Below, piece by piece: positions 4,965-55,793 of a stretch of DNA of 64,000 bases. The stretch is from contig JACPKG010000002.1 in assembly GCA_016187175.1 (NCBI GenBank), positions 12,922 through 76,921 of the forward strand. Reading direction: 5' to 3'. The number at the start of each line of letters is the position of its first letter. Within the stretch, counting starts at the first letter, position 1. Both the position numbers and the translations under genes were made by a program. The notes below the pieces were generated by a model. That model searched no databases. It saw only the letters and a list, made by a program, of their open reading frames with translations, and was not told the DNA's origin. Origin of the DNA: Candidatus Saccharimonadota bacterium (GTDB lineage: Bacteria > Patescibacteriota > Saccharimonadia > Saccharimonadales > UBA10212).

Positions 4965-5765
4965 ATGAAACTACTTGACGGCAAGGAACTGGCTGGGTTT
5001 ATTAAGGAGCGGCAGGCTAAGGATGTCCGCCGGCTTAAGGCATCCAAAATTTTTCCGAAGCTGGCTATTGTCCAGGTCAAAGACGATCCGGTTATTAACA
5101 CCTACGTACGACTGAAAAAGAAATACGGGGCTGATATTGGTATTGGAGTAGAGCTGCATGCCCCAGAGCAAAAGGACGTGCCAAAATTACTTAACAGGTT
5201 AAGTAATGACAAGTCGGTGCATGGTATCATTGTCCAGCTGCCTCTGTCAGATCCTTCTCAGACTGACGAAATAGTCAACATGGTTGCGCCCGAAAAAGAC
5301 GTTGACGCCCTAGGCAAAAACGCCAGATTTGAGCCAGCAACACCAATGGCTATTCTATGGTTGTTGCACGGGTACAACATCGAACTAGCAGACAAGCACA
5401 TTTTACTCATCGGTCGCGGGAAATTAGTTGGCGCGCCACTGGAAAAAATTCTCAAAAGCTCCGGCTATAGTATTGAAGTTATTGACCGCGACGTTAAAAA
5501 TTTAGCCGAACATACCAAAAGAGCGGATATTATTATTACGGCCACCGGCAGCCCGGCCATTCTCTATCCGGCCATGATTAAGCGAGGGGCAGTGGTGGTT
5601 GACGCCGGCGTCGCTAGCGAAGAAGGTAAAACCGTTGGCGACCTGTCGCCGGAAGTGTATAAGCGTGACGATTTAACCGTGACGCCAGAAAAAGGTGGCG
5701 TCGGTCCGTTAACCGTCTGCGCCTTGTTTGAAAACGTCATCCGGGCCGCTAAAAGTGAGTGCTAA
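4965..5765 (+). CDS. folD: bifunctional methylenetetrahydrofolate dehydrogenase/cyclohydrolase
   Basis: 266 aa. The GKELAG...RLKKKYG...HGIIVQLPL...VGDLSPEV...GVGPLTV blocks are typical of FolD. Confidence 0.9.
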   Translation: MKLLDGKELAGFIKERQAKDVRRLKASKIFPKLAIVQVKDDPVINTYVRLKKKYGADIGIGVELHAPEQKDVPKLLNRLSNDKSVHGIIVQLPLSDPSQTDEIVNMVAPEKDVDALGKNARFEPATPMAILWLLHGYNIELADKHILLIGRGKLVGAPLEKILKSSGYSIEVIDRDVKNLAEHTKRADIIITATGSPAILYPAMIKRGAVVVDAGVASEEGKTVGDLSPEVYKRDDLTVTPEKGGVGPLTVCALFENVIRAAKSEC

Positions 5766-7152: not shown

Positions 7153-7175
7153 TGTGATAGGTTAGACCTATCACA
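7153..7175. repeat. REP-like palindrome, family 1 (TGTGATAGGTTAGACCTATCACA), outer copy on the left side of the tnpA gene
   Basis: A perfect 10-bp arm hairpin was read directly from the sequence. Confidence 0.8.
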
Positions 7176-7232: not shown

Positions 7233-7255
7233 TGTGATAGGTTAGACCTATCACA
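7233..7255. repeat. REP-like palindrome, family 1, second left copy abutting/overlapping the tnpA start codon
   Basis: The sequence is identical to the 7153-7175 copy. Confidence 0.8.
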
Positions 7256-7878
7256 TGCCAAGCAGGAATATAGTTCGGGAGTTCGTTTCTGATAGCTATT
7301 ATCATATTTATAATCGTGGAGTAGAGAAACGAGTAATCTTTACTGATGAGCAAGATTACACGGTTTTCTTAGGTCTATTGAAGAAGTATCTGTCTGGTGA
7401 ACCGCCAGGCAAAGAAAACAGGCATCTTTTTAAGAGTTTTCAGGGCGAGCTCTCTCTTTTGGCTTATTGCTTAATGCCCAGCCATTTCCACCTACTTTTT
7501 TATCAATCATCAGAAAAAGCATTTGCGGAATTGATGTGTCGATTGTGCACTGGTTACGTTATGTACTTCAATAACCGGCACCATAGAATAGGCGGTCTCT
7601 TCCAGGGGCCATATCGGGCTTCTCGCATTGATGAAGATGGATATTTACATCACATATCAAGATATATACACCTGAACCCAGAAGATTATAAAAATTGGCC
7701 ATACTCAAGCCACTCAGTTTACACAGGAGTAAAAAAGACAGTGTGGGTAAACACAGAACTGATTTTGGGCTTATTTAACAATGACCCAAAAGAGTATCAG
7801 GAGTTTTTAGATGATTACGTAGACAGCAAAGCCGAGCTGGCGATTCTCAAACATCAGCTAGCTAATGACTTAGAGTGA
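7255..7878 (+). CDS. tnpA: IS200/IS605-family HUH (Y1) transposase, likely a REP-associated tyrosine transposase (RAYT-like)
   Basis: 207 aa. It has the HuH motif MPSHFHLLF and the catalytic-Tyr region YLHHISRYIHLNP. It is flanked by cognate palindromes on both sides. Confidence 0.8.
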   Translation: MPSRNIVREFVSDSYYHIYNRGVEKRVIFTDEQDYTVFLGLLKKYLSGEPPGKENRHLFKSFQGELSLLAYCLMPSHFHLLFYQSSEKAFAELMCRLCTGYVMYFNNRHHRIGGLFQGPYRASRIDEDGYLHHISRYIHLNPEDYKNWPYSSHSVYTGVKKTVWVNTELILGLFNNDPKEYQEFLDDYVDSKAELAILKHQLANDLE

Positions 7879-7885
7879 TCTTTTT

Positions 7886-7930
7886 GTGATAGTAGTTGTG
7901 ATAGGTCTAACCTATCACAACTACTATCAC
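7886..7930. repeat. compound nested palindrome (GTGATAGTAGTT-[TGTGATAGGTCTAACCTATCACA]-AACTACTATCAC) on the right side of tnpA
   Basis: The inner copy (7897-7919) is the family-1 REP in the opposite orientation to the two left copies (centre GGTCTAACC versus GGTTAGACC). Confidence 0.8.
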
Positions 7931-7977
7931 ACTCACACGGCTCTCCGTAAAAGGCTTGTGTTTATTTAAATTGAGGG

Positions 7978-8005
7978 TTGACGGGCTGGGCAAACGTAGT
8001 ATAAT
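7978..8005 (+). promoter_or_regulatory. sigma70-like promoter TTGACG-N16-TATAAT upstream of the 8029 ORF
   Basis: Both hexamers are visible in the sequence. Confidence 0.45.
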
Positions 8006-8028
8006 CTGCTTTTGGTTAAGGAAAAAAT

Positions 8029-8376
8029 ATGACTTTTGAAAAATCAGGATATCTTTCCCCGACCTCGCAGGGCCATGAAGCTCCACGGAGGGATCTACTG
8101 GATATTGAATTATTCCCAAGTGCCGTACCCATTGAAGACGTTAAGCCCGTCGGAGAGATGCATGTCAACGAAAGTTCCAGCGGGTTTAGATTTAACGAAT
8201 TAGAACAAGCTCAGGTTGATGGCAGCGAATTGCATGCAGACCACGACGCTCTAGTAAGATTGGGCGGTATGTGGGCTGTACGTGCAACTAGCGCCCAAGG
8301 TATGCCTCCTGAGGCTAGAGCCTTTTATCAAGGTATTTTCGATTTTGCTCAGCCTGGTGAAAAAAGAAAAAAGTAA
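8029..8376 (+). CDS. hypothetical protein (115 aa, acidic)
   Basis: An intact ORF follows a good promoter, with an AAGGAAAAAAT purine-rich stretch before the ATG. No family was recognised. Confidence 0.45.
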   Translation: MTFEKSGYLSPTSQGHEAPRRDLLDIELFPSAVPIEDVKPVGEMHVNESSSGFRFNELEQAQVDGSELHADHDALVRLGGMWAVRATSAQGMPPEARAFYQGIFDFAQPGEKRKK

Positions 8377-8598
8377 GCTTAAACCCGATCCTAAGCATTA
8401 GCTTGTTGATAGTATTGCCAATATTGCAACCTTGTGATAAAATATACCCACTCTCGCCATCTGGCGCGTTAGTGAGGTGGACAAGACGCAATCTTGACAA
8501 TTCAGAAGTTTGCGAACAATTTAGAAAATGGTCAAAATTAAACTAAATTGAGAGGCAAACTAGATAGTTATGGGGTTTTAATTGAAGCGATTAGCCAT

Positions 8599-8618
8599 TA
8601 GCTAATAGCTATTAGCTA
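8599..8618. promoter_or_regulatory. perfect 20-bp AT-rich palindrome TAGCTAATAGCTATTAGCTA just inside the left IR, upstream of the cargo gene
   Basis: The sequence is its own reverse complement. It could be an operator. Confidence 0.3.
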
Positions 8619-8806
8619 TCTGCTCTTAATTCCCATAACCGACTACTTAATTTGTTTTTGATCTGTCCTTTTGGGCAAGGCACCAAGGTGATACATGTCT
8701 TTGTATTGTACTGTCGCTTTGGTGTCTTGCCCAACCCTCAAGGGTAAGGGCAGACCCGGTGATTGCGCACGCTGGTCTCCTGAACCACGACCACCGGGAG
8801 GTGATC

Positions 8807-10531
8807 ATGAGTACCTTGCGCAAGACCACGACCGCCTTTCTGGTGGTCGTGGGGCTCGCCGCCGCCATCGCGCCCTCGGGCGCATCGGCGGCGAGCGACG
8901 CAGACCGCCGCCCGCGGCTCAACCGCGTTGTCGAGCACGGAGCGAACTCCGTGGCCGACATCCGCCGAGCCGCGGCGCAGTACCCGCAGTATCGAGAGAT
9001 GCTGCAGAACGAGCTGGACATGGATGGCTGGGACCCGTCCATGCTGCAGCTCGGCCCCGTCGTCAACATCGGCGACGGGGAGCAGATCGTGAACCAGGGG
9101 GTCGCCCCTGGGACACGGCAGCTTGTCGCCTACCCCGACCGCGGACGCGGTTACACGTACCGAAAGGTCGTGAACCGCGCCAACGGGAAGTTCGTGATCG
9201 TCAAGATCAGGTGTGGGAACCTGATCAAGACGTTCCGGGTTCCCGCGGAGCGGGTGAAGATCATCACCCGCTACCGTACGATCTACAAGATCAAGTACAT
9301 CAACCGGGCCGCGGAGATCGTTCCGCGCGGATCCGAGGCGCAAGCCAAGGCCACCGCCGGTGCGGTCGCCACGAATAACATCGACATCAACAACCGGCCG
9401 AAGGTCACCGTCACGGTGAAGCCGAAGATCACGGTCAAGCCGACCGTGAGCGTGACGGTGAAGGTGCCGGGGCAGAAGACCGCCCCGGCAAAGCCCAAGC
9501 CGGCGCCAACCCCGGCCGTGAAGTACGGCCGGTTGACGATCACCAAGGCCACTCCCGGTGTGGCCCGCGCCTGTTTCCGTTTCCACCTCTGGGTGGTCAA
9601 GAGCGGCAGGTGGGCGCGCTCGACCGACTTCTCGCTCTGCACCGGGCAGAGCAAGAGTTACAGCCTCCGGACGTCGACCAACGTCGGCGTGACGGAGAAC
9701 GCTGCCCGCGGGTGGAGTCCCGCAGCAGCGTGCGTTCGGAAGATCGTAGCGGCCGGGGTCCGCTGCGACTTCGTCAACCGGAAGGTCGCGGTGGCCCCGG
9801 GGGAGTTCACCGCGACCGTATCTAAGAAGGTCGTGAACTCGGCCATGACGGCCGATTTCACGACCTTCTACAATTTGTTCCGCCTGCCCGTGGCGGTGTG
9901 GATCAACGGGCAGGCGGCGTATACGGTGCTGGTTCCCATGGACGGGAACCGGTACGCGGTTTCGAAGGACGGCATCTCCCCGTTCGTGTTCAAGAAGGGG
10001 GACGCCGTGAAGTTATGCGAGGACCTCGGGTTCGCCCGAGGTCTCGTGCTCGAACCCGTCGCGCCGGTGGCGGCCGACGGGTGCCTGGTTGCGCAGAAGG
10101 GAGGGCCTGGCCTAGAGGTCTTTTCCTTCATCAACCGGGCAGTGGAGGGGGTGAGGCCCCAACCCCCGCCCCCGGCGGTTCAGCCACCGCCGGCGGCGCC
10201 TCCCACGGCGCCGCCGGTGACGCCTCCGACCCCGGCGCCGAAGACCGGGGCTCCGGGTCCCGGCACAACTACGCCGGGACAAGCAGGTGGCCCGGGAGCC
10301 GTCGGTTCGCCCGCCGCGGGCTCCGGCCCGACGTGCCGGGACGCCTCCGGGAACGTTGTTCCCGGGACCACCGGCGCCTCGGGGAACTGCCCGGGAGCGG
10401 TCCCCCCGACGACGGGGGCGCCCGGGCCGGCGGCGGGATCACCCCCCCCGCCCCCGACGGGGAACTGCCTAGACCCGGCAACGGGCCAGTCCCGGGCCGG
10501 GGCGAAAGATCAGTTCGGCTACTGCGTCTGA
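8807..10531 (+). CDS. secreted protein of unknown function with a signal peptide, Lys-rich KPKITVKPTVSVTVKVPGQK repeats, a Cys-containing central domain, and a C-terminal Pro-rich linker plus Cys-containing tail; high-GC codon usage
   Basis: The start was chosen at MSTLRK, 6 nt after GGGAGG. The signal peptide reads TTAFLVVVGLAAAIAPSGASAAS. The gene is 574 aa. Confidence 0.6.
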   Translation: MSTLRKTTTAFLVVVGLAAAIAPSGASAASDADRRPRLNRVVEHGANSVADIRRAAAQYPQYREMLQNELDMDGWDPSMLQLGPVVNIGDGEQIVNQGVAPGTRQLVAYPDRGRGYTYRKVVNRANGKFVIVKIRCGNLIKTFRVPAERVKIITRYRTIYKIKYINRAAEIVPRGSEAQAKATAGAVATNNIDINNRPKVTVTVKPKITVKPTVSVTVKVPGQKTAPAKPKPAPTPAVKYGRLTITKATPGVARACFRFHLWVVKSGRWARSTDFSLCTGQSKSYSLRTSTNVGVTENAARGWSPAAACVRKIVAAGVRCDFVNRKVAVAPGEFTATVSKKVVNSAMTADFTTFYNLFRLPVAVWINGQAAYTVLVPMDGNRYAVSKDGISPFVFKKGDAVKLCEDLGFARGLVLEPVAPVAADGCLVAQKGGPGLEVFSFINRAVEGVRPQPPPPAVQPPPAAPPTAPPVTPPTPAPKTGAPGPGTTTPGQAGGPGAVGSPAAGSGPTCRDASGNVVPGTTGASGNCPGAVPPTTGAPGPAAGSPPPPPTGNCLDPATGQSRAGAKDQFGYCV

Positions 10532-10547
10532 CGCAGTAGCCGAACTG
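10511..10547. terminator. 37-bp palindrome (16-bp arms CAGTTCGGCTACTGCG / CGCAGTAGCCGAACTG) centred on the TGA stop of the cargo gene
   Basis: The arms are a perfect inverted repeat. It may be a terminator or a recombination site; there is no U-tract. Confidence 0.4.
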
Positions 10548-10683
10548 GTAACCCGTCCGTGTGATACCGTGCGGGCGGGTGGGACTAACGGCTAACGGTA
10601 TAGGTAGTCGGGTGGGGCGAGGTTTCGTTCGATGAGATGGTCGCCTCGGCGACTGCAGAACTCTTGAGCAGAGACTCGCCCCA

Positions 10684-10719
10684 CCCCGACGCCGTAGAGC
10701 AAAAGCTCCGGCGTCGGGG
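10684..10719 (+). terminator. GC-rich stem-loop CCCCGACGCCG-N14-CGGCGTCGGGG in the 3' region of the high-GC insert
   Basis: The stem is a perfect 11 bp. Confidence 0.3.
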
Positions 10720-10931
10720 TCACATACCCTCATTTGTTACTCCTCGGGAAGAGCAGCCCGAGCGTCGGATTTACTCCGCGCCCGGCGCGATGGGAAACCC
10801 CGAAGGGGTGTCCTATAAGGCGAAGCCGTTTTAAAGCCCAATAACTATCTAGTTTGCGAAAGCCTTAACAGATTTGTTCTGGCTAATCGTTAAAATTTAA
10901 CTAAATTCGATTTTAAGAAAGGAATTAAATA

Positions 10932-11777
10932 ATGCGTATGAAACTAGCTTTAACAAGCTTGCTTAGCGCGGTCGCAATAGTGGTTATGCCCGGCATTGCG
11001 TTAGCCGGATTTGCGCCGGCTGACCGCGCGACCCTCCAGTGTATTAGCCCAACCAACTGCCCGGGTGCCAGCTACGTGACTTTTAACTCGTTTACCAACG
11101 CTCCTAACTACGGAGACGAAAGGGCCTTTTTTGACGCCAAAGACGCTTCGATTACAAGTCCAGGCGGCTTCCAAGATAAGCTGACCGTAACCCACGGTCA
11201 GAGGATCTTTATGCGCGTCTATGTGCATAACAATGCCAACGAGTCTGCCATTGGTCAGGCGGCCGCTACGGCTAAAAATACTCGCATCCAGGCACTCCTG
11301 GAAACCAATAAGAAAACCAGCCACGTGGCGTCTGCTGCCATCACCGCAGACAACGCTAATCCGGCCACAGTTAGCGACACGGTCGAGCTGACTGGCGCCA
11401 ACCCGTTCACCATGGTGTTTGATAGAAACGCGCCGGTTAATGTTACCTACCGGCCTAACGGCACCGGCGATTGGGTGACCCGACCACTGCCTGGTGCTAC
11501 CTTCGCTAATGACCAGACAATCAACGCCAATGTTGGCGATTGGAGAGGCTGCTTCGAGTTCGGAGCACTAATCACCTTCACAGCCATTGTTAGTATGGAT
11601 GTACCAAAAATAGAAGTACCGCCACAAATCCCGCCTACACCAACTCCTCCTTCCGCTGGAAAACCGGGCGCACTGCCGGTAACTGGTGGTGCTGGTAGCG
11701 TTTTGGGCGTGTTTACGGGCGTAAGTGCTGCTGCCGGCGCTGTCCACTATTTGTGGGGCCGCCGGTTCGGCCAATAA
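10932..11777 (+). CDS. LPXTG-motif cell-wall-anchored surface protein
   Basis: 281 aa with a signal peptide MRMKLALTSLLSAVAIVVMPGIALA. The C-terminus has LPVTGG, a hydrophobic segment and an RRFGQ tail, which is a sortase substrate pattern. Confidence 0.65.
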   Translation: MRMKLALTSLLSAVAIVVMPGIALAGFAPADRATLQCISPTNCPGASYVTFNSFTNAPNYGDERAFFDAKDASITSPGGFQDKLTVTHGQRIFMRVYVHNNANESAIGQAAATAKNTRIQALLETNKKTSHVASAAITADNANPATVSDTVELTGANPFTMVFDRNAPVNVTYRPNGTGDWVTRPLPGATFANDQTINANVGDWRGCFEFGALITFTAIVSMDVPKIEVPPQIPPTPTPPSAGKPGALPVTGGAGSVLGVFTGVSAAAGAVHYLWGRRFGQ

Positions 11778-11831
11778 CCCGCCGAAATTTCAAAGAAATT
11801 TTTGCGGGCGAAGACAAAAATAACTTTGCAG

Positions 11832-11847
11832 GGGAGCCTTCGGGCTC
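11832..11847 (+). terminator. GGAGCC-TTCG-GGCTCC hairpin downstream of the LPXTG gene, followed by CTTGCAAG-type palindromes
   Basis: The hairpin was read directly from the sequence. Confidence 0.3.
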
Positions 11848-12040
11848 CTCTTGCAAGTCTTGCAAGGACAGTCCTTGCAAAAATAAACACTGGTCAAAAC
11901 TGCCAAAATGTGCTAGCGTTTAAATAGAGCAATCCCACAGGGTTTCGCTCTTCCTCGCAATCTGGTTGCAGACTGCTTTGAAGGAGGAAACCCAAAGGGA
12001 CAAGTCGTGACTGACCGCTCATCGCAAATAGGTGGAGTTA

Positions 12041-12087: not shown

Positions 12088-12112
12088 TGCTACAAGGATA
12101 ATCCTTGTAGCA
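12088..12112. repeat. REP-like palindrome, family 2 (TGCTACAAGGATAATCCTTGTAGCA)
   Basis: It is a perfect palindrome at the 3' side of the decayed tnpA. Confidence 0.75.
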
Positions 12113-12743
12113 TTAGCTTTCTGCCAGCCAATGTCTAAGCTGCTGAAATTCAGCTCGCATTGACTCATAGTCTTTCACAAAAGTGGCATAGTCACTCAGC
12201 TCATCGGCGTGCATCGCCAGTATTCTTTTTGGATTGATCCATTCAGCCTGCTTGCGACCTAGATAGTAGCGATAGCTGGAGTATGGGTAGGAGGTGTTTT
12301 TGATCTTATATCTTGTGGGTTAAGATGAATATAGCGGCTGATATGCCATAGATAGGCCTCGTCGTTAATCAGACTAGCTTCATAGGTTGATTCAAAAAGT
12401 CTCCCCCTGCCTTTATGAACCCTATTGAAATATAGACCATAAGCAGTCAGTATGCTACACATCAAATCCGTTATTCCAGTCTCTTTCTTGTTGTAGACCA
12501 ACAGATGAAAATGAGTAGGCATCAAGCAAAAGGCCAAAAGCTCCACCTCGTCGCGTAAATGACGTATTGGGCGTCGAGTAAGGTCTTGGCCGGGCTCTCC
12601 TAGAAAGGTAGCGTTTGAACAAGCTTAAGAAAGTCCTGTAATCTCTATCATCGATGAAGATATGGTGACGAAAAACACCTCGATTATATAGGTGGTAATA
12701 GCTTTCTGGCGCAAACTCCTTCACAACATTCCGTAGCGGCATT
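12113..12743 (-). pseudogene. decayed IS200/IS605-family tnpA (frameshifted; pieces in at least 3 frames)
   Basis: Three fragments are visible: MPLRNVVKEFAPESYYHLYNRGV..., then LLAFCLMPTHFHLLV...HISRYIHLNPQD, then ...EWINPKRILAMHADELSDYATFVKDYES. These parallel the intact TnpA at 7255 but are diverged. Confidence 0.6.
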
Positions 12744-12768
12744 TGCTACAAGGATTATCCTTGTAGCA
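12744..12768. repeat. REP-like palindrome, family 2 in the opposite orientation (centre GGATTATCC), abutting the pseudogene start
   Basis: The sequence is TGCTACAAGGATTATCCTTGTAGCA. Confidence 0.75.
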
Positions 12769-12811: not shown

Positions 12812-12887
12812 GGCCCCATCGTCTAGTGGCCTAGGACACCAGGTTTTCATCCTGGCAACAGGGGTTCGATTCCCCTTGGGGTCACCA
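12812..12887 (+). tRNA. tRNA-Glu (anticodon TTC), CCA encoded
   Basis: The sequence GGCCCCATCGTCTAGTGGCCTAGGACACCAGGTTTTCATCCTGGCAACAGGGGTTCGATTCCCCTTGGGGTCACCA folds as a canonical cloverleaf. Confidence 0.85.
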
Positions 12888-14703: not shown

Positions 14704-15501
14704 ATGCGAAAAATCCTGATTGTCGGAAATTGGAAGATGCATCTGAACGCCAGTCAGGCTAGTTTGCTAGTGCATCGGCTTCAGGAGCGGATAAAAATTT
14801 ATCGCGATATCGAAGTGGTGCTGGCGCCAAGTATGCTGACCCTTCAACCGTTAAGTCTCCAAATAGATAGGCGCAAATTCCGCTTGGCCGCCCAAAACGC
14901 CTACTTTCGCGATGAAGGTCCGTTTACCGGCGAAGTCAGCTTTAACATGCTGCGAGATATAGTACATTACGTAATTATCGGCCATAGCGAAAGGCGACAG
15001 CTATTTCACGACAACCTGGCTACAGTCCGGGATAAAATGGCGGCGGCCGTTAGGAACGAAATCGTCCCGATTTTATGCGTCGGCGAAACCCAACAGGAAC
15101 GTGAGGACAAAGAGACCAAGCAAGTTCTGCACGATCAGCTTATGACGGCGCTAAGCAACTTAACAGCCGCCGAGGTAGCTGATGTTGTAATTGCCTATGA
15201 GCCGATCTGGGCTATTGGCCAGGTGACAGCTAAACCGGGCCAAGTGGCTGAAGCAGTGACTTACGTTCGCGGCTATGTTAGGGATGTTTTTGGCGAAAAA
15301 GTCGCCAAAAACATTCGTATACTATATGGCGGTGACGTAGCGCCGGAAGTTGTCCATGGACTGTTAGACGTGCCGGGTGTGGATGGTTTTTTGGTGGGCC
15401 ACGGCAGTTTGAACTACGAAACATTCGCCGCTATAGTAGAGGCAACACACCGCTGGCAAAGAAACAATAATGGCGAAATGGCGCCAGTTAAGGGGGAATA
15501 G
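14704..15501 (+). CDS. tpiA: triosephosphate isomerase
   Basis: MRKILIVGNWKMHL...IIGHSERR...YEPIWAIG are TIM signatures. The start was placed at the ATG after the hairpin; the ORF track's longer 5' extension reads through the hairpin. Confidence 0.85.
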   Translation: MRKILIVGNWKMHLNASQASLLVHRLQERIKIYRDIEVVLAPSMLTLQPLSLQIDRRKFRLAAQNAYFRDEGPFTGEVSFNMLRDIVHYVIIGHSERRQLFHDNLATVRDKMAAAVRNEIVPILCVGETQQEREDKETKQVLHDQLMTALSNLTAAEVADVVIAYEPIWAIGQVTAKPGQVAEAVTYVRGYVRDVFGEKVAKNIRILYGGDVAPEVVHGLLDVPGVDGFLVGHGSLNYETFAAIVEATHRWQRNNNGEMAPVKGE

Positions 15502-18744: not shown

Positions 18745-19971
18745 ATGAAGTTACTGCGTCACAAAATCTCCAAACGCTATAAAGCCGCTCAAGCTAGTGG
18801 CAAGCGGCAGGTCAAGCAACGTCCATACATTATCCCGATTTTGGGTCTGGTGCTTGGTTTTATCATAGTCGCCGCGGCTCTGCTGGGCGGTAACGGCAAG
18901 ACACTGCGGCCTAGTGAAGCGCACGTGGTTTTTTTGTTTGATAAGGGTGATCGCCAAGTGATTGATACTAAGGCCAAAACCGTCGGCGACATGTTAGGCA
19001 AATTGCCCCTGCACTTGATTCCCGAAGACGTGGTTGAACCAAGCCTGGACACGCCAATCCCGGAAGATAATTTTAGGGTTAACATCTACCGCGCCCGGCC
19101 GGTGACGGTTGTTGATAGCGGCCGTAAAATTGTAACCCTGACAGCCCAAAAAAGCCCGCGGGTAGTGGCTCAAAACGCCGGTCTAGATCTTAATCCGGAA
19201 GACTTGGCAACTTTTGATCAAGGTCACCTGGAAGAGAACGTTATCGGCGAAAAGGTTGTGGTTGCCCGAGCCACACCGGTTAGTCTTAATCTCTACGGTG
19301 CCCAGTTGACCACTTACACCCAGGCAACCAATGTAGAGCAATTTTTGGCCGAAAAAAGGATCGAGTTAGAGCATGGAGAAACCGTCCAGCCGGCGAAGGA
19401 TACGCCGATTACTCCCAACCTGCCGGTTTTTGTGCTGCGCAAAGACGCCAAAATCGTCACTGCCGAAGAGCCAGTAGCCCCGCCCGAGCAGATTGTCAAC
19501 GATCCGTCTTTAAGCTTCGGCACAACAGTTGTTCGTCAACAAGGCGCCCCCGGTAAAAAGGTTTTAACCTACATTTTGCAAACCGATGCGGCCGGTAAAG
19601 AAATTTCCCGGCAGGTTTTGCAAGAAGTTATTTTGCAGGACCCGGTGCCGCAAATTACTGCCAGGGGGAGTACAGTGGCTATCGCCAGCGATAAAACCGG
19701 ACTCATGGCGGCAGCCGGCATCTCGCCCGGGGACTACGCCTATGCTAACTACATCGTCAGCCGCGAATCCAACTGGCGGGTTACCGCCCAAAACGCCTCC
19801 GGGGCGTACGGCCTATGCCAGGCCTTGCCGGGCAGCAAGATGGCCAGTGCCGGTGGAGACTGGCAGGCTAACCCGGTCACGCAGCTGCGCTGGTGTAATG
19901 GATATGCTCGCGAAAGATATGGTGGCTGGGGCGGCGCCTACAATTTTTGGTTGAATAATCGCTATTGGTAG
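18745..19971 (+). CDS. secreted G5/DUF348-type protein with a C-terminal lysozyme-like (Rpf/Apf-type transglycosylase-like) domain
   Basis: 408 aa with an N-terminal TM. The C-terminus reads ANYIVSRESNWRVTAQNASGAYGLCQALPGSKMA...RYGGWGGAYNFW. Confidence 0.5.
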   Translation: MKLLRHKISKRYKAAQASGKRQVKQRPYIIPILGLVLGFIIVAAALLGGNGKTLRPSEAHVVFLFDKGDRQVIDTKAKTVGDMLGKLPLHLIPEDVVEPSLDTPIPEDNFRVNIYRARPVTVVDSGRKIVTLTAQKSPRVVAQNAGLDLNPEDLATFDQGHLEENVIGEKVVVARATPVSLNLYGAQLTTYTQATNVEQFLAEKRIELEHGETVQPAKDTPITPNLPVFVLRKDAKIVTAEEPVAPPEQIVNDPSLSFGTTVVRQQGAPGKKVLTYILQTDAAGKEISRQVLQEVILQDPVPQITARGSTVAIASDKTGLMAAAGISPGDYAYANYIVSRESNWRVTAQNASGAYGLCQALPGSKMASAGGDWQANPVTQLRWCNGYARERYGGWGGAYNFWLNNRYW

Positions 19972-20786
19972 GTATGGAATTTACCAAGAAATCCTTAGGT
20001 CAGCACTGGTTGCATGACGAAACGGCCCTCAACCACATATGTGATAGGTCTAACCTATCACAAGATGATACGGTGCTGGAAATTGGGCCAGGCACAGGCA
20101 CACTAACGGCCAAACTACTGAAAAGGGGCGCCAAAGTTGTGGCTGTAGAGAAAGATGAAACTCTCGCCGCAAAGCTTCACAACCTACGGGTACGACCCGT
20201 AGATTCTACGGGTCGTACCCGTAGAAGACAACTATCAGTGGTGGAGGGGGATATTTTGCAATTTGATCTGACTCGGTTACCGGCAGACTATAAGGTCGTT
20301 GCTAATATTCCCTATTATCTGACCAGCAATTTGCTAAGGTACCTCTCCGAGTCTATAAACCCGCCTTCGCTAATGGTGTTGCTCCTCCAGAAGGAAGTTG
20401 CGCAAAGGATTGCCGTCCAGCCGGGTCAAATGAGCTTGCTATCTGTTAGCGTCCAACTTTATTACGAACCGGAGCTAGGCAGGATTATTCCGGCCAGACT
20501 TTTTACGCCGCCGCCAAAAGTCGACTCCCAAGTTGTGATTCTTCGTCGCCTCCCCGTTACAAGGATTATCCTTGTAGCAAACGAGGTGGATGGGTTTATG
20601 AAGGTGGTCAAGGCTGGCTTTTCACAGCGCCGAAAAAAACTGCGCAGCAGCTTGTCCGGCGGGCTTGGGATTACGAAGGAACAAGCCGACGACTTACTAA
20701 AAAAGGCCGGCATCAACCCCAACACCCGCGCCCAAGAACTCTCCCTTCAGGAATGGTACAAATTATGCAAAAAGCTCATCGGGTGA
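19965..20786 (+). CDS. rsmA: 16S rRNA (adenine1518/1519-N6)-dimethyltransferase, carrying three in-frame palindromic insertions
   Basis: 273 aa. LGQHWL, the SAM motif LEIGPGTGTLT and NIPYYLTS are KsgA signatures. Confidence 0.8.
   Translation: MVGMEFTKKSLGQHWLHDETALNHICDRSNLSQDDTVLEIGPGTGTLTAKLLKRGAKVVAVEKDETLAAKLHNLRVRPVDSTGRTRRRQLSVVEGDILQFDLTRLPADYKVVANIPYYLTSNLLRYLSESINPPSLMVLLLQKEVAQRIAVQPGQMSLLSVSVQLYYEPELGRIIPARLFTPPPKVDSQVVILRRLPVTRIILVANEVDGFMKVVKAGFSQRRKKLRSSLSGGLGITKEQADDLLKKAGINPNTRAQELSLQEWYKLCKKLIG
20040..20062. repeat. REP family-1 palindrome inserted in frame in rsmA (encodes ...CDRSNLSQ...)
   Basis: TGTGATAGGTCTAACCTATCACA is identical to the tnpA right-side copy. Confidence 0.8.
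20184..20224. repeat. tandem pair of 19-bp hairpins (CTACGGGTACGACCCGTAG and CTACGGGTCGTACCCGTAG) in frame in rsmA (encodes LRVRPVDSTGRTRRR)
   Basis: This is a third palindrome type, seen only here in the window. Confidence 0.6.
20556..20579. repeat. REP family-2 palindrome inserted in frame in rsmA (encodes VTRIILVAN)
   Basis: GTTACAAGGATTATCCTTGTAGCA has one arm mismatch. Confidence 0.7.
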
Positions 20787-20911: not shown

Positions 20912-20931
20912 ATACTTGACTAGTCAAGTAT
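20912..20931. promoter_or_regulatory. perfect 20-bp palindrome ATACTTGACTAGTCAAGTAT overlapping a TTGACT -35-like hexamer upstream of marR; candidate MarR operator
   Basis: It is its own reverse complement. A second copy lies at 55794-55817. Confidence 0.45.
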
Positions 20932-20951
20932 CTGTGCCGTATGCTTACGGC

Positions 20952-21386
20952 ATGAAAACAATAAAAAAACGGGGGACTTACACCCCTCTCACTTCCCTGC
21001 ACCGCTTGGAGTTTATTTTACAACATAAATCAGATTCGCTACTGCGCGATTCTTTAGGGGTAGGTTTTGGCCAAGTGCAAATAATGCAAGCCCTGCACCG
21101 CTCGGTCCCACTCACCCAACGCGCTGTGGCCGTTAAGCTGCATCAAACAGAGGCCAATGTCAGCCGTCAGCTCCAGCTTCTTAAGAAAAAGGGACTAGTT
21201 AATATCACCCGTAATAAAAAAGATAAGCGTCTGCGCGAAACTTCTCTAACCGCTAAAGGTCAGCAAACATTTGCAAAAGCCGAGAAAATTCTATCTGCCC
21301 AGCACAAAGAACTGCTGAAAATGGTAGATGACCGCGACGTTAAAGCCCTAGACCGCGCCGTCTCCCACCTATTAAAAGCCCTTTAG
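20952..21386 (+). CDS. MarR-family transcriptional regulator
   Basis: 144 aa from MKTIKK. The winged-HTH region reads LTQRAVAVKLHQTEANVSRQLQLLKKKGLVNITRNKKDKRLRETSLTAKG. The ORF track's upstream TTG start lies inside the palindrome and is unlikely. Confidence 0.65.
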   Translation: MKTIKKRGTYTPLTSLHRLEFILQHKSDSLLRDSLGVGFGQVQIMQALHRSVPLTQRAVAVKLHQTEANVSRQLQLLKKKGLVNITRNKKDKRLRETSLTAKGQQTFAKAEKILSAQHKELLKMVDDRDVKALDRAVSHLLKAL

Positions 21387-26877: not shown

Positions 26878-27023
26878 CTGGCCTAGATATTACTACTTTT
26901 TTAAACGATCGTTAAATTTAGTATTACTTAACCTGTTAAGTAATTTAGCATGGTAAGTAAATCAAGTAATTTCCTCTTTACTTACTGTTTATTGTTCATT
27001 GCTTATTGTTTACAATTAAGAAG

Positions 27024-36320: not shown

Positions 36321-37439
36321 ATGAGAAGGGTGTTTGTTGGGATGAGCGGCGGAGTTGATTCTTCGGTTGCCGCTTTGCTCTTAAAGGAGCAGGGCTATGA
36401 AGTTGCGGGTATCTATATGAAGAATTGGACACAGGATCTGCCGAACCTCAAATGTCCCTGGCGGGATGATTTTAACGATGCTAAACGAGTAGCGGTCCAG
36501 TTGGGCATCGACTTTAAAGTTTATGACTTCCAAGAAGAATATAAACACAAAGTCGTTGACTACATGATTCGTGAATACCAAGCCGGACGCACGCCAAATC
36601 CAGACATCATGTGCAACCAGGAAGTCAAGTTCAAACTGTTTTTAGAGACAGCCTTGGAAGATGGTGCTGACATGATTGCTACCGGCCACTACGCCCGTGT
36701 GATAGGTCTAACCTATCACAAGCAAAAAACAGAGGTGAGTAACAAAAATACTGATGTGACAGGTCTAACCTATCACATGGCAACCGCTAAGGACGGGAAT
36801 AAGGACCAGACCTATTTCCTATACCGTATAACCCAAGCAGCCCTAAGCAAAACACTGTTCCCTTTGGGAGAACTGACCAAGCCGGAGGTTAAGGCACTGG
36901 CTCAAAAACATAAACTGATGACTGCAGATAAAAAAGAAAGCATGGGTATTTGTTTTGTTGGCAAAGTCCCAATCAAGGATTTCCTAGAGCAGTTTATAAA
37001 GACAAAACATGGCAAAATTATTAACCAATCCGCCAGCCGGCGTCGGCATGTGATTGGTGAGCATGACGGAGCTATTTTTTACACCATCGGCCAACGGCAC
37101 GGCTTAAATATCGGTGGAGGACTGCCATACTACGTTACCGGCAAAAATATGAAGAAAAACGAAGTTTATGTAACAACCGACCTTCAAGACGAAAAGTTGT
37201 GGAGCGATAAAATCAAACTGACTGATATGCATTGGATAAATGGTGAACCATCAGCTAAATACAATCTGCAAGTTCGGACAAGACATAGAGCAAAGCTAAT
37301 CACAGTGAAAAAGCTTGACCTGTTAAGTAATTCTAAAGCCACAGTCGAACTTGATGAAGAGGTGCGCGCTTTAACTCCCGGCCAATCTGCCGTCTTCTAT
37401 TCCGGCCAAGAATGCCTGGGCGGAGGAATAGTCATCTAA
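36321..37439 (+). CDS. mnmA: tRNA-specific 2-thiouridylase MnmA, with a ~25-aa in-frame insertion from two REP family-1 palindromes
   Basis: VGMSGGVDSSVAALLL PP-loop, IATGHYAR and C-terminal blocks are present. The insert VIGLTYHKQKTEVSNKNTDVTGLTYHM is encoded by the palindromes. Confidence 0.85.
   Translation: MRRVFVGMSGGVDSSVAALLLKEQGYEVAGIYMKNWTQDLPNLKCPWRDDFNDAKRVAVQLGIDFKVYDFQEEYKHKVVDYMIREYQAGRTPNPDIMCNQEVKFKLFLETALEDGADMIATGHYARVIGLTYHKQKTEVSNKNTDVTGLTYHMATAKDGNKDQTYFLYRITQAALSKTLFPLGELTKPEVKALAQKHKLMTADKKESMGICFVGKVPIKDFLEQFIKTKHGKIINQSASRRRHVIGEHDGAIFYTIGQRHGLNIGGGLPYYVTGKNMKKNEVYVTTDLQDEKLWSDKIKLTDMHWINGEPSAKYNLQVRTRHRAKLITVKKLDLLSNSKATVELDEEVRALTPGQSAVFYSGQECLGGGIVI
36698..36777. 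repeat. two REP family-1 palindromes (36698-36720 perfect; 36755-36777 with one mismatch) plus 34-bp spacer, in frame inside mnmA
   Basis: The first is TGTGATAGGTCTAACCTATCACA and the second TGTGACAGGTCTAACCTATCACA. Confidence 0.8.
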
Positions 37440-50738: not shown

Positions 50739-53588
50739 ATGGCTGGATTTATATCTATTCGAGGCGCTAGGGAACATAACTTAAAAAATGTTAATCTGGA
50801 GATTCCACGCGAGAAGCTGGTGGTTATAACCGGACTTTCCGGTTCGGGAAAATCTTCCTTAGCCTTTGACACAATTTACGCCGAAGGCCAACGCCGCTAC
50901 GTTGAGTCATTGAGCGCCTATGCCCGCCAGTTTCTAGGTATTATGGAAAAGCCGGATGTCGACCAGATAGATGGCCTTAGTCCGGCCATTAGCATTGATC
51001 AAAAATCCGCCAGCCGTAATCCGCGCAGCACGGTGGCGACCGTTACTGAAATTTATGATTATCTGCGCTTACTGTTTGCCCGGGTCGGCATCCCGCACTG
51101 CCCAGCCCGCCTGCCGGACGGGCGGGTCTGCAGCCAACCGGTAACCCGCCAGACTTCCAACGCTATTTTAGACCAGGTTGTTGAGGCCACCGAAAATTCT
51201 AAGATCATGGTTTTAGCGCCTGTGGTTATAGATAAAAAAGGCGCCTTTGAACATATTTCCGAGCAGTTCCAGCGAGCCGGTTTTGCCCGCACGAGGGTTG
51301 ATGGTGTAATTTACGCCCTGGATGAATTTCCAGCCCTTGATAAAAACTTCAAACACAACATAGATATCGTGGTTGATCGGTTGGTTAATAATGAAGAAAG
51401 CCGCGCCCGGCTGGCCCAAAGCGTTGAACAGGCTCTGGATTTAGCCGATGGCTTGCTAACTATCGTATCCGTCGGCGATGTACAAGGTCAGACCTATCAC
51501 AAGGAATACCATTATTCCTTGAAGTATGCCTGTGTTGACCACCCCGACATAGCCATTCCGGAACTAGAGCCGCGGACATTCAGCTTCAACTCACCGCACG
51601 GCGCCTGTCCGGTTTGCACTGGTCTAGGCAATCGGCTGGAAGTTGACCCTGAGCTAGTTATCCCGAATGGCCGGCTGACGATTGCCGAAGGCGCCATTCG
51701 GCCATTTAACCGTATTACCACTGATGCCTGGTGGATGAAAAAACTGCAGGCCGTGGCTGACAGGTATCGTTTTAGCTTGCACGTACCGACCGGAGAGTTA
51801 ACTAAGAATCAGCTGGATAAAGTTCTTTATGGCACCGGTAACGAAACTTATCGGATTAGCCTTGGAATTGGCCGTTCATTTAACACTACTTATGAAGGTG
51901 TTATCCCAAACTTAGAGCGACGGCACAAAGAAACTGAAAGTGACTTTATCCGCCGCGACATCGAAAAATATATGCAGGAGCGGCCCTGCCACGCCTGTGA
52001 CGGCCAGCGCCTAAAACCGGAAGTCTTAGCCGTTACAGTTGCCGGCCGCTCCATTATGGCTATATGTGAGCTAAGCATCGATAATGCTGTAGAACTTTTC
52101 GAAAATATTAAGCTGGATGTAACCAGCGCCCAAATCGCCAGACAGATTTTAAAGGAAATTAATGCCCGTCTAAAATTTCTTCAGGACGTCGGGCTTAACT
52201 ATTTGACTTTAGCCAGAAGCGCTGTCAGTTTAGCTGGCGGCGAAGCCCAGCGCATCCGCCTGGCGACCCAAATAGGCTCTGGCCTACAAGGTGTGCTCTA
52301 CGTTCTTGACGAACCTAGCATCGGTTTGCACCAACGCGACAATCAGCGTCTATTGGGCACACTGGAACGGCTGCGTGATCTAGGCAACACAGTTATTGTA
52401 GTTGAACATGATGAAGAAACTATACGCAGTGCTGATTTTGTGGTGGATATTGGGCCAGGTGCCGGCATCCATGGCGGCCAGATTGTGGTAACCGGTTCGC
52501 CAGCAGAAGTAGCCAAGGCCAAAAATAGTGTTACGGCCCAGTTTTTGCGTGGCGATAAAATTATCAAGACACCCAAGAAGCGTCGGGTTGGTAGTGGTAA
52601 AACACTAGTTATCAAGGGTGCACGCCACAACAATCTAAAGAACCTTAACGTAACCATTCCGTTGGGCTTGTTAGTTGTAGTCAGTGGTGTTAGCGGTTCA
52701 GGCAAGTCTAGTCTGATAAATGACATTTTGGCGCGTGAGCTTTCGGTCCGTTTGATGCATGCTCAAACTGTTGCTGGCCGGCACGATGACATCGAAGGCA
52801 TTAAGCAACTTGATAAAGCCATTGTTATCGACCAATCGCCGATTGGCCGTACGCCACGCTCTAATCCCGCGACCTACACCGGCGTTTTTACTCCAATCCG
52901 TGAACTTTTTGCGCAGACACCGGAAGCTAAAATCCGCGGTTACTCTCCAGGACGATTTAGCTTTAATGTTAAAGGCGGGCGCTGCGAAAACTGTGCCGGT
53001 GATGGCGTGATCAAAATCGAAATGCACTTTTTACCGGACGTTTATGTGACTTGTGAAGTTTGCCATGGCCAGCGCTACAACCGCGAAGCGTTGGAAATCC
53101 ACTATAAAGGAAAGACTATCAGCAACGTGCTGGAAATGACCTGTGAACAAGCCTTAGATTTTTTTGCCAACATTCCGGCCATTGCCCGCAGGCTGCAAAC
53201 CTTGGTTAGCGTTGGTCTGGGCTATATCACCCTTGGCCAGCCGGCCACAACTCTGTCTGGTGGCGAAGCCCAGCGTGTTAAGTTGGCCACCGAACTCTCC
53301 CGCCGGCCTACCGGACGCACGTTATATATTTTGGACGAACCGACTACCGGCCTGCATATGGCCGACGTTGATAAACTGTTGCATGTCCTGCACGCCCTGG
53401 TTGACGCTGGCAATAGCATGATAGTTATCGAACACAACCTTGACGTTATCAAGTCAGCCGATCATATTATTGATATGGGTCCGGAAGGCGGAGATGCCGG
53501 CGGCCAGGTTATTGCCGAAGGTACACCGGAAAAAGTCATCAAAATCAAAACTAGCTACACCGGCCAATTTTTAAAACAAATTTTATAA
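50739..53588 (+). CDS. uvrA: excinuclease ABC subunit A
   Basis: 949 aa. It has two ABC modules ([24 protein letters not shown]), Zn-finger Cys pairs and an LSGGEAQR signature. Confidence 0.95.
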
Positions 53589-55783: not shown

Positions 55784-55793
55784 CCTCAAACTT

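What the first reader, a model, noticed from the sequence alone, without database searches (positions are those of the whole stretch)
19965..20786. REP-like palindromes inserted in frame inside essential genes (rsmA x3, mnmA x2, uvrA half-site)
rsmA/ksgA carries three separate palindromic inserts without breaking the reading frame. These are family 1 (20040-20062), a unique tandem hairpin pair (20184-20224) and family 2 (20556-20579). They add short peptides (CDRSNLSQ, LRVRPVDSTGRTRRR, VTRIILVAN) between recognisable KsgA motifs. mnmA carries two family-1 copies 34 nt apart (36698-36777), giving a ~25-aa insert VIGLTYHKQKTEVSNKNTDVTGLTYHM between conserved blocks. uvrA has a 16-nt half-site (51486-51501). 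In-frame colonisation of protein-coding genes by palindromic mobile elements is classically known from Rickettsia palindromic elements. Finding it here, linked to a RAYT-type transposase, suggests the same process in an unrelated small genome and predicts surface-loop insertions in these enzymes.
Basis: partly seen in the sequence, partly recalled or inferred. Interest (0 to 1): 0.75.

Follow-up and report, generated by a model that had tools for sequence, protein, structure and literature searches.

The report
REP hairpins inside Saccharibacteria housekeeping genes
Short DNA hairpin repeats that belong to a tyrosine-transposase (RAYT-like) system sit in frame inside conserved housekeeping genes of a Candidatus Saccharibacteria genome; this behaviour is already documented in other bacteria, but here it appears in a new phylum, at recurrent hot spots, and in one case overwrites native codons without changing the protein's length.

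Summary
All the palindromes are at the stated coordinates, and none is expected by chance. Families 1 and 2 are the same hairpins that flank, in inverted orientation, two Y1/HUH transposase genes in the window: RAYT1 (7255-7878, intact) and RAYT2 (12113-12742, frameshifted). The "unique" twin hairpin belongs to a third family, which flanks its own RAYT in a related metagenome contig.

Alignment with 120 orthologues each gives a split result:
- rsmA site 2, the mnmA doublet and the uvrA remnant are lineage-specific insertions. They lie at loops or beta-turns that are hot spots for many hairpin families across Saccharibacteria; 48 of 120 MnmA orthologues carry an insert at the same turn.
- rsmA site 1 is not an insertion. 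All 120 orthologues have the same length there. The identical 24 nt recur in a distant orthologue (gene-wide nucleotide identity 0.58) while sister lineages lack them.
- rsmA site 3 is a near length-neutral replacement (+2 aa).

Intragenic RAYT-associated REPs, including copies in uvrA, DNA ligase and tRNA synthetases, were described in 2013. I therefore file this as a new member of a known kind in a CPR phylum. The recurrent, length-neutral overwriting at rsmA site 1 is unexplained.

The parts
7153..7175 (.). Family-1 REP (loop TAG), intergenic, followed by ACTAC (GTAG on the other strand)
7233..7255 (.). Family-1 REP (loop TAG) abutting the RAYT1 start codon; its last base is the A of the ATG
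7255..7878 (+). RAYT1, a 207-aa Y1/HUH transposase. It has an HFH motif and a Tyr in RYIHLNP.
   Evidence: Pfam Y1_Tnp 28 bits. NCBIfam REP_Tyr_transpos 34 bits against a cut-off of 80. A family profile aligns the HUH motif and the Tyr with ISDra2 TnpA 2xm3, E=0.009. 201 clusters at 50% identity match at E<=1e-30.
7885..7931 (.). 47-nt perfect hairpin: the family-1 core (loop CTA, inverted relative to 7233) with an outer stem that carries GTAG/CTAC
   Evidence: (dG -22.8, z -11.5)
12088..12112 (.). Family-2 REP (TGCTACAAGGAT-A-ATCCTTGTAGCA), downstream flank of RAYT2
12113..12742 (-). RAYT2, a Y1 transposase pseudogene with two frameshifts. Its orthologue in JACPKF01 is intact and syntenic.
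12744..12768 (.). Family-2 REP (loop T, inverted relative to 12088), upstream flank of RAYT2
19965..20786 (+). rsmA/ksgA. The likely true start is the ATG at 19974, as in the 270-aa NCBI protein P0001.
20040..20062 (+). rsmA site 1: the family-1 core read as CDRSNLSQ. It is a length-neutral replacement of native codons.
20184..20224 (+). rsmA site 2: twin hairpin (family T, CTACGGGT-ACG/CGT-ACCCGTAG) read as LRVRPVDSTGRTR. It is a true insertion at a hot-spot loop.
20555..20579 (+). rsmA site 3: family-2 REP (perfect core 20558-20576, one outer mismatch) read as VTRIILVA. It replaces the inter-domain linker with a net gain of 2 aa.
36321..37439 (+). mnmA, 372 aa against a lineage baseline of about 347 aa
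36698..36777 (+). mnmA insert: two family-1 cores (36698-36720 exact; 36755-36777 with 1 mismatch) in direct orientation, 34 nt apart, at the beta-hairpin turn
50739..53588 (+). uvrA, 949 aa against a lineage baseline of 936 aa
51479..51501 (+). uvrA: decayed family-1-type copy (right arm intact) read as VQGQTYHK, with a net gain of 6 aa at a beta-turn hot spot
51500..51521 (+). uvrA: adjacent 9-bp hairpin CAAGGAATA-CCAT-TATTCCTTG that overlaps the remnant

Best explanation
The palindromes are REP/REPIN-type non-autonomous hairpin elements, cognate to Y1 (RAYT-like) transposases, in a Candidatus Saccharibacteria genome.

Shown:
- Each family flanks its own transposase gene in inverted orientation, which is the REPtron architecture.
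- Copies of the same 23-41-nt units lie in unrelated genes, in either orientation.
- Copies are present or absent among orthologues, and their boundaries are sharp at the DNA level.

Inferred:
- The transposase, acting on single-stranded hairpin DNA, or replication-linked copying of the hairpins, seeds new copies.
- The genome is about 86% or more coding, so many copies land in genes.
- Only copies that keep the frame, contain no stop codon and fall at tolerant positions survive. The tolerant positions seen are beta-hairpin turns (MnmA, UvrA), an alpha-to-beta loop on the far side of the Rossmann fold (RsmA site 2) and an inter-domain linker (RsmA site 3).
- Surviving copies are translated as 8-aa units (single copy, 24 nt) or 25-30-aa units (doublet).
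- Genic copies are bare cores without an outer stem or GTAG tag, so they are probably immobile fossils. They decay (the uvrA remnant) or are replaced by whichever family is active in that lineage. This would produce hot spots that hold different families in different lineages.

rsmA site 1 needs an extra step: copying a REP over similar native codons (TGTGAT..AAyCTA) without any change in length.
For: - REPtron architecture: family 1 around RAYT1 and family 2 around RAYT2, with inverted loops. The same holds in JACPKF01 (L013, L155). Family T flanks a RAYT that is 52% identical in L042.
- Transposase identity: Pfam Y1_Tnp and NCBIfam REP_Tyr_transpos are the best hits, and the HUH motif and Tyr align with ISDra2 TnpA.
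- Insertions against an empty baseline:
  - MnmA: 72 of 120 orthologues have the tight 'TK-DG-KLL' turn and 48 of 120 have inserts of +4 to +55 aa from many families.
  - RsmA site 2 spans 12 to 30 residues among orthologues.
  - UvrA baseline is 936 aa; inserts occur at the same turn in P0241, P0242, P0243 and P0245.
  - In JACPKF01, Tgt gains 11 aa and TsaD gains 8 aa relative to PDB homologues.
- Inserts are palindromic DNA: the P0145 insert is a true REPIN with about a 25-bp stem and dG -55.6.
- Sharp element-level identity:
  - The 41-nt twin hairpin is identical in the window and in P0005/L106, while the flanks are 56-76% identical.
  - Site 1 is 24/24 nt identical to P0117, against 0.58 gene-wide.
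- The same element occurs in different genes and in both orientations:
  - In JACPKF01, family 1 lies inside tgt, mnmA, ligA, a methyltransferase gene, tsaD and argS; that is 6 of 13 exact copies.
  - A subfamily with the tail CTAATGCTTAY lies in tgt and tsaD in opposite orientations.
  - Family T lies in frame in LepA, ValS (twice, same site), TsaD and a PrmC-like protein.
- Compensatory stem variants occupy the same ligA codon in two genomes: TGTGATAGG/CCTATCACA and TGTGAAAGG/CCTTTCACA.
- Structure models place site 2 and the mnmA insert in low-confidence protrusions.
- Precedent: intragenic RAYT-associated REPs in other phyla (PMC3733652).
Against: - No direct evidence of transposition or of RAYT activity was obtained.
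- RAYT1 scores far below the NCBIfam cut-off (34 against 80 bits). It has no phmmer match in the PDB, and E. coli TnpA-REP is not recovered even with a family profile.
- Genic copies lack the GTAG tag that RAYTs need for cleavage (PMC8266576).
- RAYT2 is a pseudogene here.
- Copy number is low: at least 13 exact family-1 cores in JACPKF01, against the hundreds typical of REPs.
- rsmA site 1 cannot be a simple insertion. Around site 3 the window and JACPKF01 share a tract of about 150 nt at 90% identity or more, which could instead reflect allele exchange.
- Hot spots could reflect a selection filter, a target preference or replacement of older copies; these cannot be separated here.
- Only 64 kb of this genome was seen.
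Confidence: 0.75

Rival explanations
1. The length-neutral palindromes (rsmA site 1, and also folD 5186-5207 and tpiA 15284-15314) were not inserted. They were written in place by template switching during replication. Either an imperfect hairpin was 'perfected' using its own other arm as template, or, at rsmA site 1, the nascent strand copied a dispersed REP through microhomology and then switched back.
For: - Site 1 has the same length in all 120 orthologues.
- The unconverted alleles already share TGTGAT and AAyCTA with the REP (JACPKF01: TGT GAT GCA GCA AAT CTA).
- The tpiA 13-bp-stem palindrome aligns gap-free with TIM homologues, and orthologues in L024, L025 and L155 carry only a quasi-palindrome there.
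- The folD palindrome aligns gap-free with PDB 3p2o.
- Quasi-palindrome template-switch mutagenesis is an established mechanism (my own knowledge).
Against: - Intramolecular correction alone cannot explain why site 1 equals the RAYT-flanking family-1 sequence base for base in several lineages.
- Microhomologies of 6 and 5 nt are short.
- No intermediate alleles were seen.
- It does not apply to the net insertions (site 2, mnmA, uvrA).
Confidence: 0.3
2. The intragenic hairpins are maintained by selection as functional DNA or RNA structures, for example mRNA stability or translation-pausing elements, or protein-binding sites. They are not selfish passengers.
For: - DNA-level conservation exceeds synonymous expectation at site 1. 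Third-position identity is 42/48 there, against 0.49 in the rest of the gene.
- A compensatory stem change is seen at the ligA site.
- The same positions are occupied repeatedly.
Against: - Most orthologues lack any element at the same positions (72/120 for MnmA; 32/120 RsmA at the 12-14-residue minimum length at site 2).
- Unrelated families occupy the same site.
- Decayed copies exist (uvrA, P0017).
- The sequences are identical to transposase-flanking repeats.
- Host genes are functionally unrelated.
Confidence: 0.1
3. Palindrome-bearing gene segments spread between Saccharibacteria lineages by homologous recombination of alleles, not by transposition into each gene.
For: Around site 3 the window and JACPKF01 rsmA share about 150 nt at 83-100% identity against a background of about 65%. 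The site-1 distribution on the tree is patchy.
Against: - At sites 1 and 2 the high identity stops exactly at the element ends. For window versus P0117, the upstream 30 nt are only 15/30 identical.
- It does not explain the same element in non-homologous genes.
Confidence: 0.15
4. The extra segments are ancestral protein features, or the palindrome matches are chance.
For: Some orthologues share the same peptides (P0005, P0002, P0117).
Against: - Shuffle controls give 0 expected matches.
- Baseline orthologues lack the segments.
- The shared peptides are shared as identical DNA in genes whose synonymous sites are otherwise saturated.
Confidence: 0.02

Closest known systems
Intragenic GTAG/CGTC REPs (Di Nocera, De Gregorio and Rocco 2013, BMC Genomics 14:522; PMC3733652)
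   Same: Short perfect hairpin repeats associated with RAYT genes lie entirely inside ORFs, in frame, as singles or dimers encoding about 8-30 aa. Host genes overlap strikingly: uvrA, DNA ligase, tRNA synthetases and tRNA-modification enzymes. REPs in recB of two Xanthomonas species lie at about the same site.
   Different: - The phylum is different (CPR/Saccharibacteria, genome about 1 Mb).
- The share of copies inside genes is much higher (6 of 13 in JACPKF01).
- Multi-family hot spots are shared across many lineages.
- One site is overwritten without any change in length.
- Family-1 genic copies lack a GTAG tag.
REPtron / RAYT-REPIN systems (Nunvar 2010; Bertels and Rainey 2011; Ton-Hoang 2012; Corneloup 2021, PMC8266576)
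   Same: A Y1 HUH transposase gene is flanked by its cognate hairpins in inverted orientation. The palindromes are perfect, about 19-23 nt with 3-nt loops, as in group 3 REPs. Doublets can form long hairpins (P0145). The RAYT is syntenic in a related genome, as expected for vertical inheritance.
   Different: - The transposase is about 205 aa and scores well below the NCBIfam RAYT cut-off.
- GTAG/CTAC lies inside the stem (families 2 and T) or only in the outer stem (family 1).
- Copy number is low.
- Copies are largely intragenic rather than extragenic.
Rickettsia palindromic elements (RPE; Ogata et al. 2000)
   Same: Palindromic repeats are inserted in frame in conserved genes of a small genome and are tolerated at surface positions.
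   Different: RPE-1 is about 100-150 bp and has no known transposase (own knowledge). The elements here are 23-80 nt and are tied to Y1 transposases. Sequence relatedness was not tested.
Quasi-palindrome template-switch mutagenesis (Ripley model)
   Same: It produces perfect palindromes in place through multiple simultaneous substitutions and no length change. This matches tpiA, folD and possibly rsmA site 1.
   Different: The classical process uses the local partner arm as template. It does not explain identity to a dispersed repeat family.

Membership tests
REPtron (RAYT + REP) | Y1 HUH transposase with an HUH motif and a single catalytic Tyr | tested here: met
   The HFH motif and the Tyr in RYIHLNP can be read in the sequence. 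Pfam Y1_Tnp scores 28 bits against a cut-off of 23. A family profile aligns both motifs with ISDra2 TnpA 2xm3.
REPtron (RAYT + REP) | The protein belongs to the curated RAYT family (NCBIfam NF047646 equivalog) | tested here: not met
   This is the best hit, but at 34-36 bits against a cut-off of 80. E. coli TnpA-REP is not recovered from the PDB. The protein is a divergent ~205-aa subfamily with 201 clusters at E<=1e-30.
REPtron (RAYT + REP) | The transposase gene is flanked by its cognate hairpins in inverted orientation | tested here: met
   Family 1 lies at 7233 (loop TAG) and 7897 (loop CTA). Family 2 lies at 12091 (loop A) and 12747 (loop T). The same arrangement is seen in JACPKF01 and L042.
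REPtron (RAYT + REP) | A conserved GTAG tetranucleotide at the foot of the hairpin | tested here: inconclusive
   Families 2 and T have CTAC...GTAG as the base of the stem. Family 1 has GTAG/CTAC only in the outer stem at 7885-7931 and next to 7153. All genic copies lack it.
REPtron (RAYT + REP) | Dispersed copies at high number (typically more than 100 per genome), mostly extragenic | tested here: not met
   There are 7 family-1 copies in 64 kb here and 13 exact cores in the JACPKF01 MAG. Roughly half of these are inside genes. The complete genome of the window's organism was not available.
REPtron (RAYT + REP) | The transposase cleaves and joins single-stranded REP DNA | not testable with these tools
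   This needs a biochemical cleavage/strand-transfer assay as in PMC8266576.
Intragenic REPs (Di Nocera 2013) | A REP unit or dimer lies wholly inside a conserved ORF, in frame, and is absent from shorter homologues | tested here: met
   This holds for rsmA site 2, mnmA and uvrA and for Tgt and TsaD of JACPKF01. It does not hold for rsmA site 1, which shows no length difference.
Rickettsia palindromic elements | A repeat unit of about 100-150 bp with no associated transposase | tested here: not met
   The units here are 23-47 nt (80 nt for the doublet) and flank Y1 transposase genes. The RPE length is from my own knowledge.
Rickettsia palindromic elements | Sequence similarity to the RPE consensus | not tested
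   No RPE sequence was compared.

The most novel reading that the evidence does not exclude
REP hairpins in these reduced genomes spread by a second route besides insertion. In this route the REP sequence is copied over pre-existing, partly similar coding sequence at a defined position without changing its length. The process could be microhomology-guided or transposase-guided conversion, a kind of 'homing' to proto-sites. The event recurs independently in separate lineages (rsmA site 1 in at least two, probably four or more, lineages). A related in-place palindrome-perfecting process acts on folD and tpiA.
Probability: 0.25. Interest if true: 0.75.

Novelty: new member of a known kind. Interest (0 to 1): 0.5.

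Why it matters
- It extends RAYT/REP biology to the Candidate Phyla Radiation. I found no report of this in the searched literature.
- In a genome with little intergenic space, these elements live largely inside conserved genes. They lengthen beta-hairpins and loops of tRNA-modification, translation and repair enzymes.
- Practically, it explains much of the odd length variation and many of the "insertions" in Saccharibacteria housekeeping proteins. It also warns that such segments are mobile-element scars rather than lineage-specific functional domains.
- The hot spots (the MnmA turn, RsmA site 2, the UvrA turn, ValS) give natural filled/empty allele series. These can be used to study how REPs are gained, replaced and lost.
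- The length-neutral, recurrent overwrite at rsmA site 1, if confirmed, would make the long-open question of how REPs actually disseminate directly testable.

Tried and rejected
- Ancestral protein feature: rejected by alignments of 120 orthologues each for RsmA, MnmA and UvrA.
- Chance palindromes: rejected by shuffle controls.
- Assembly artefact: rejected, because the same elements at the same codons occur in independent assemblies.
- The twin hairpin as a one-off local duplication: rejected. The metagenome scan found it flanking a RAYT and inside other genes. Most of the 120 matches in that scan, those with loops other than ACG/CGT, belong to unrelated repeat families and were set aside.
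- A direct PDB sequence match for RAYT1: none found. Only a weak profile hit to ISDra2 TnpA.
- A conserved target motif at insertion junctions: I compared flanks of all family-1 copies and found none. The only result was a subfamily tail, CTAATGCTTAY.
- A first attempt to align LigA of L010 with L019 failed because of a translation error. It was redone with tblastn.
- The MnmA structure model is only moderately confident (pLDDT 68.7), so the beta-hairpin extension is tentative.
- An in-frame-rate test was judged uninformative. Only open-frame copies can survive in conserved genes, and 3 of the 6 frames of family 1 and 4 of the 6 frames of family T contain stop codons.
Full report
**Observation**

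The window comes from a Candidatus Saccharibacteria MAG. RsmA and UvrA are 100% identical to NCBI proteins on a 93-kb contig.

- Family 1 (TGTGATAGGT-NNN-ACCTATCACA) has five exact copies, one copy with 1 mismatch and one with 3 mismatches. None is expected by chance.
- Family 2 has three exact copies.
- The element at 20184-20224 is a perfect 41-nt palindrome built from two 19-nt hairpins.
- As single-stranded DNA the elements fold far better than shuffles, with z-scores of -4.5 to -11.5.
- The window as a whole holds 21 perfect hairpins with a stem of at least 10 bp. Simulations give 0.6.

**What the palindromes belong to**

Family 1 brackets a 207-aa ORF (7255-7878). One copy ends on its start codon, and a 47-nt extended hairpin lies 7 nt after its stop codon. 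The two copies have inverted loops (TAG and CTA).

Family 2 brackets a second, related ORF on the other strand (12113-12742). That ORF carries two frameshifts.

Both ORFs are Y1/HUH transposases:
- Pfam Y1_Tnp passes its cut-off.
- The best NCBIfam model is "REP-associated tyrosine transposase", but at 34-36 bits against a cut-off of 80.
- A profile of the family aligns the HUH motif (HFH) and the catalytic Tyr (RYIHLNP) with ISDra2 TnpA.
- The family is large, with 201 clusters at 50% identity matching at E<=1e-30.

The related MAG JACPKF01 has both REPtrons intact. Its family-2 REPtron sits at the syntenic position beside tRNA-Glu and pgk.

The "unique" twin hairpin is a third family. A metagenome scan found CTACGGGT(ACG/CGT)ACCCGTAG flanking a RAYT that is 52% identical to RAYT1 (L042). 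The scan also found it in frame inside LepA, ValS (two contigs, same site), TsaD, a PrmC-like methyltransferase and another RsmA.

**Are the genic copies insertions?**

*MnmA.* Of 120 Saccharibacteria orthologues, 72 have a tight turn (ATGHYARTK-DG-KLLMAKD). The other 48 carry 4 to 55 extra residues exactly at that turn, drawn from many sequence families.
- The window's 27-residue segment is one of these.
- JACPKF01 has a single family-1 copy at the same place.
- DNA from three other orthologues shows that the inserts are hairpin DNA. One is a true REPIN, made of two inverted REPs with about a 25-bp stem and dG -55.6.

*UvrA.* The baseline is 936 aa with the turn GLLTV-HNADT-KSDLHYSL.
- The window has +6 aa there ([15 protein letters not shown]).
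- JACPKF01 has VIGLTSHK.
- Two orthologues have doublets, VKGPSFH...VKGRTFH.
- The uvrA "half-site" is therefore a decayed family-1-type insert.

*RsmA site 2.* This segment varies from 12 to 30 residues among 120 orthologues.
- P0005 and L106 carry the identical 41 nt, while their flanks are only 56-76% identical to the window.
- P0017 has a family-1-like copy at this site.
- P0002 has TTCCAAGGT-CGA-ACCTTGGAA, and JACPKF01 has a TTGCAAGGC-type doublet.

*Other genes in JACPKF01.* Six of 13 exact family-1 cores lie inside long conserved ORFs: tgt, mnmA, ligA, a methyltransferase gene, tsaD and argS. Tgt shows a gain of 11 aa and TsaD a gain of 8 aa relative to solved homologues. A subfamily with the tail CTAATGCTTAY is inserted in tgt and tsaD in opposite orientations.

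These results show discrete elements that enter different genes.

*rsmA site 1 adds nothing.* All 120 orthologues have the same length there. In the model the segment covers the end of helix 19-28 and the ordered loop leading to strand 1, with pLDDT 92-95.

The DNA at site 1 nevertheless behaves like an element:
- P0117 sits in a distant clade of a rough NJ tree and is 0.58 identical to the window at the nucleotide level gene-wide. It has the identical 24 nt at the same codons.
- P0002, P0004 and P0020 differ from the window by one base at this site.
- Sister sequences lack the palindrome. P0027 reads GCC GAT GCT GCA GAT ATT TCG CTA, and JACPKF01 reads TGT GAT GCA GCA AAT CTA AAG CCG.
- Third-position identity at conserved residues is 42/48 inside the element and 0.49 elsewhere in the gene.

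This is a recurrent, length-neutral replacement, and I cannot explain it with a simple insertion.

*rsmA site 3 is a net +2 aa replacement of the inter-domain linker.* The window and JACPKF01 share a tract of about 150 nt around it at 83-100% identity. Allele exchange may therefore contribute at this site.

**Two further in-frame palindromes in the window show the same length-neutral pattern**

- folD 5186-5207 has a 10-bp stem. A second copy lies in intergenic DNA at 26923.
- tpiA 15284-15314 has a 13-bp stem.
- Both align without gaps to solved homologues.
- tpiA orthologues carry only a quasi-palindrome at that position.

This suggests that palindromes are also written or perfected in place in these genomes, for example by template switching.

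**Mechanism**

*Best supported.* These are REP/REPIN-type elements tied to RAYT-like Y1 transposases.

*Shown.*
- The REPtron architecture, for three families in three genomes.
- Presence/absence of copies among orthologues.
- Sharp DNA boundaries.
- The same unit in unrelated genes in both orientations.
- Palindromic inserts from several families at the same codon.
- Compensatory stem variants at the ligA site: TGTGATAGG/CCTATCACA and TGTGAAAGG/CCTTTCACA.

*Inferred.*
- The transposase, or replication-linked copying, generates new copies.
- Only in-frame, stop-free copies at tolerant positions survive. Three of the six frames of family 1 and four of the six frames of family T contain stops.
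- The copies are translated.
- Genic copies are dead cores. Their flank complementarity is 2-4 of 14, which is the random level, and they lack GTAG. Some intergenic copies carry an outer stem and GTAG/CTAC.

*Hot spots.* They may reflect a selection filter, a target preference or replacement of an older hairpin by a newer one. The data do not separate these possibilities.

**Comparison with what is known**

Di Nocera et al. 2013 (PMC3733652) described GTAG and CGTC REPs located entirely within ORFs. The hosts included uvrA, DNA ligase, tRNA synthetases and tRNA pseudouridine synthases. That paper noted RAYT association and identified Rickettsia RPE-4 and RPE-6 as CGTC REPs.

Corneloup et al. 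2021 (PMC8266576) showed that group 3 REPs are perfect palindromes of about 23 nt. Their cleavage depends on GTAG.

The finding is therefore the same kind of thing, not a new category. The differences are:
- the phylum (I found no CPR report);
- a divergent ~205-aa transposase subfamily;
- low copy number with about half the copies inside genes;
- multi-family hot spots shared across many lineages;
- the length-neutral overwrite.

**Verdict**

- Novelty: a new member of a known kind.
- One genuinely puzzling feature (rsmA site 1, and the folD and tpiA palindromes) deserves follow-up.

Noticed in passing
window 8000-12000: A high-GC island (57-59% GC against about 48% elsewhere) lies between RAYT1 and the RAYT2 pseudogene, next to tRNA-Glu (12812-12887). 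Its ORFs 8759-10531 (590 aa, Pro-rich C-terminus) and 10932-11777 (281 aa, LPVTGG near the C-terminus) have no Pfam or NCBIfam match. A 37-nt perfect hairpin lies at 10511-10547. The island may be horizontally acquired or may be a chimeric assembly.
   Followed up: partly
window 5186-5207 and 26923-26944: A third palindrome family, ATTACTTAAC-NN-GTTAAGTAAT. One copy is in frame inside folD, encodes LLNRLSN and aligns gap-free with PDB FolD 3p2o, so it is length-neutral. The other copy is intergenic and has the inverted loop.
   Followed up: partly
window 15284-15314: A 31-nt perfect palindrome (13-bp stem) lies inside tpiA, encodes DVFGEKVAKNI and causes no length change. Orthologues in L024, L025 and L155 have only a quasi-palindrome at this position. 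It looks like in-place perfecting of a hairpin.
   Followed up: partly
window 51105-51125: uvrA carries a second small insert, ARLPDGR (a GC-rich imperfect hairpin), between the P and the V of an H-C-P-V-C motif. Only P0245 (JACPKF01) and P0251 share an insert at this position (ARLPDEQ and TRLPDGQ).
   Followed up: partly
window 12113-12742; L155 354-983: RAYT2 has two frameshifts in the window. In JACPKF01 it is intact (209 aa), flanked by family-2 REPs and syntenic, lying upstream of tRNA-Glu and pgk. This is consistent with vertical inheritance followed by decay.
   Followed up: yes
window 20912-20931 and 55793-55818: The palindrome ATACTTGACTAGTCAAGTAT occurs twice. The first copy overlaps the start of the MarR-family gene at 20916-21386, so it is probably an operator.
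   Followed up: no
window 57797-57832: An intergenic 36-nt perfect palindrome, TCCTACAAAAATCAGCGATCGCTGATTTTTGTAGGA, with CTAC...GTAG near its ends.
   Followed up: no
L001, L004, L006, L007, L017, L020 (Nealsonbacteria MAG PUNQ01): The exact family-1 core also occurs in a MAG of another CPR lineage. There every copy appears to be intergenic, and the adjacent Y1 transposase (L006 5315-5932) is only 31% identical to RAYT1. This could be shared ancestry, transfer or mis-binning.
   Followed up: partly
P0122 and relatives (MnmA); L110 TsaD ORF: An AT-rich inverted-repeat insert family (NSNQEIENS...LISNSQLLIP) appears in frame in MnmA of several orthologues. It also appears in TsaD of another contig (NRNQKLENSKRSKLITNSKLLIP), so it is a further mobile family.
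   Followed up: partly
L010 (JACPKF01) and L019 (JACOWW01) ligA: At the same ligA codon the two genomes carry different stem variants with a compensatory T-A to A-T change (VIGLTYH and VKGPSFH). The V-x-G-x-T-x-H peptides (I/Y, K/F, R/S pairs) mark a REP superfamily.
   Followed up: partly
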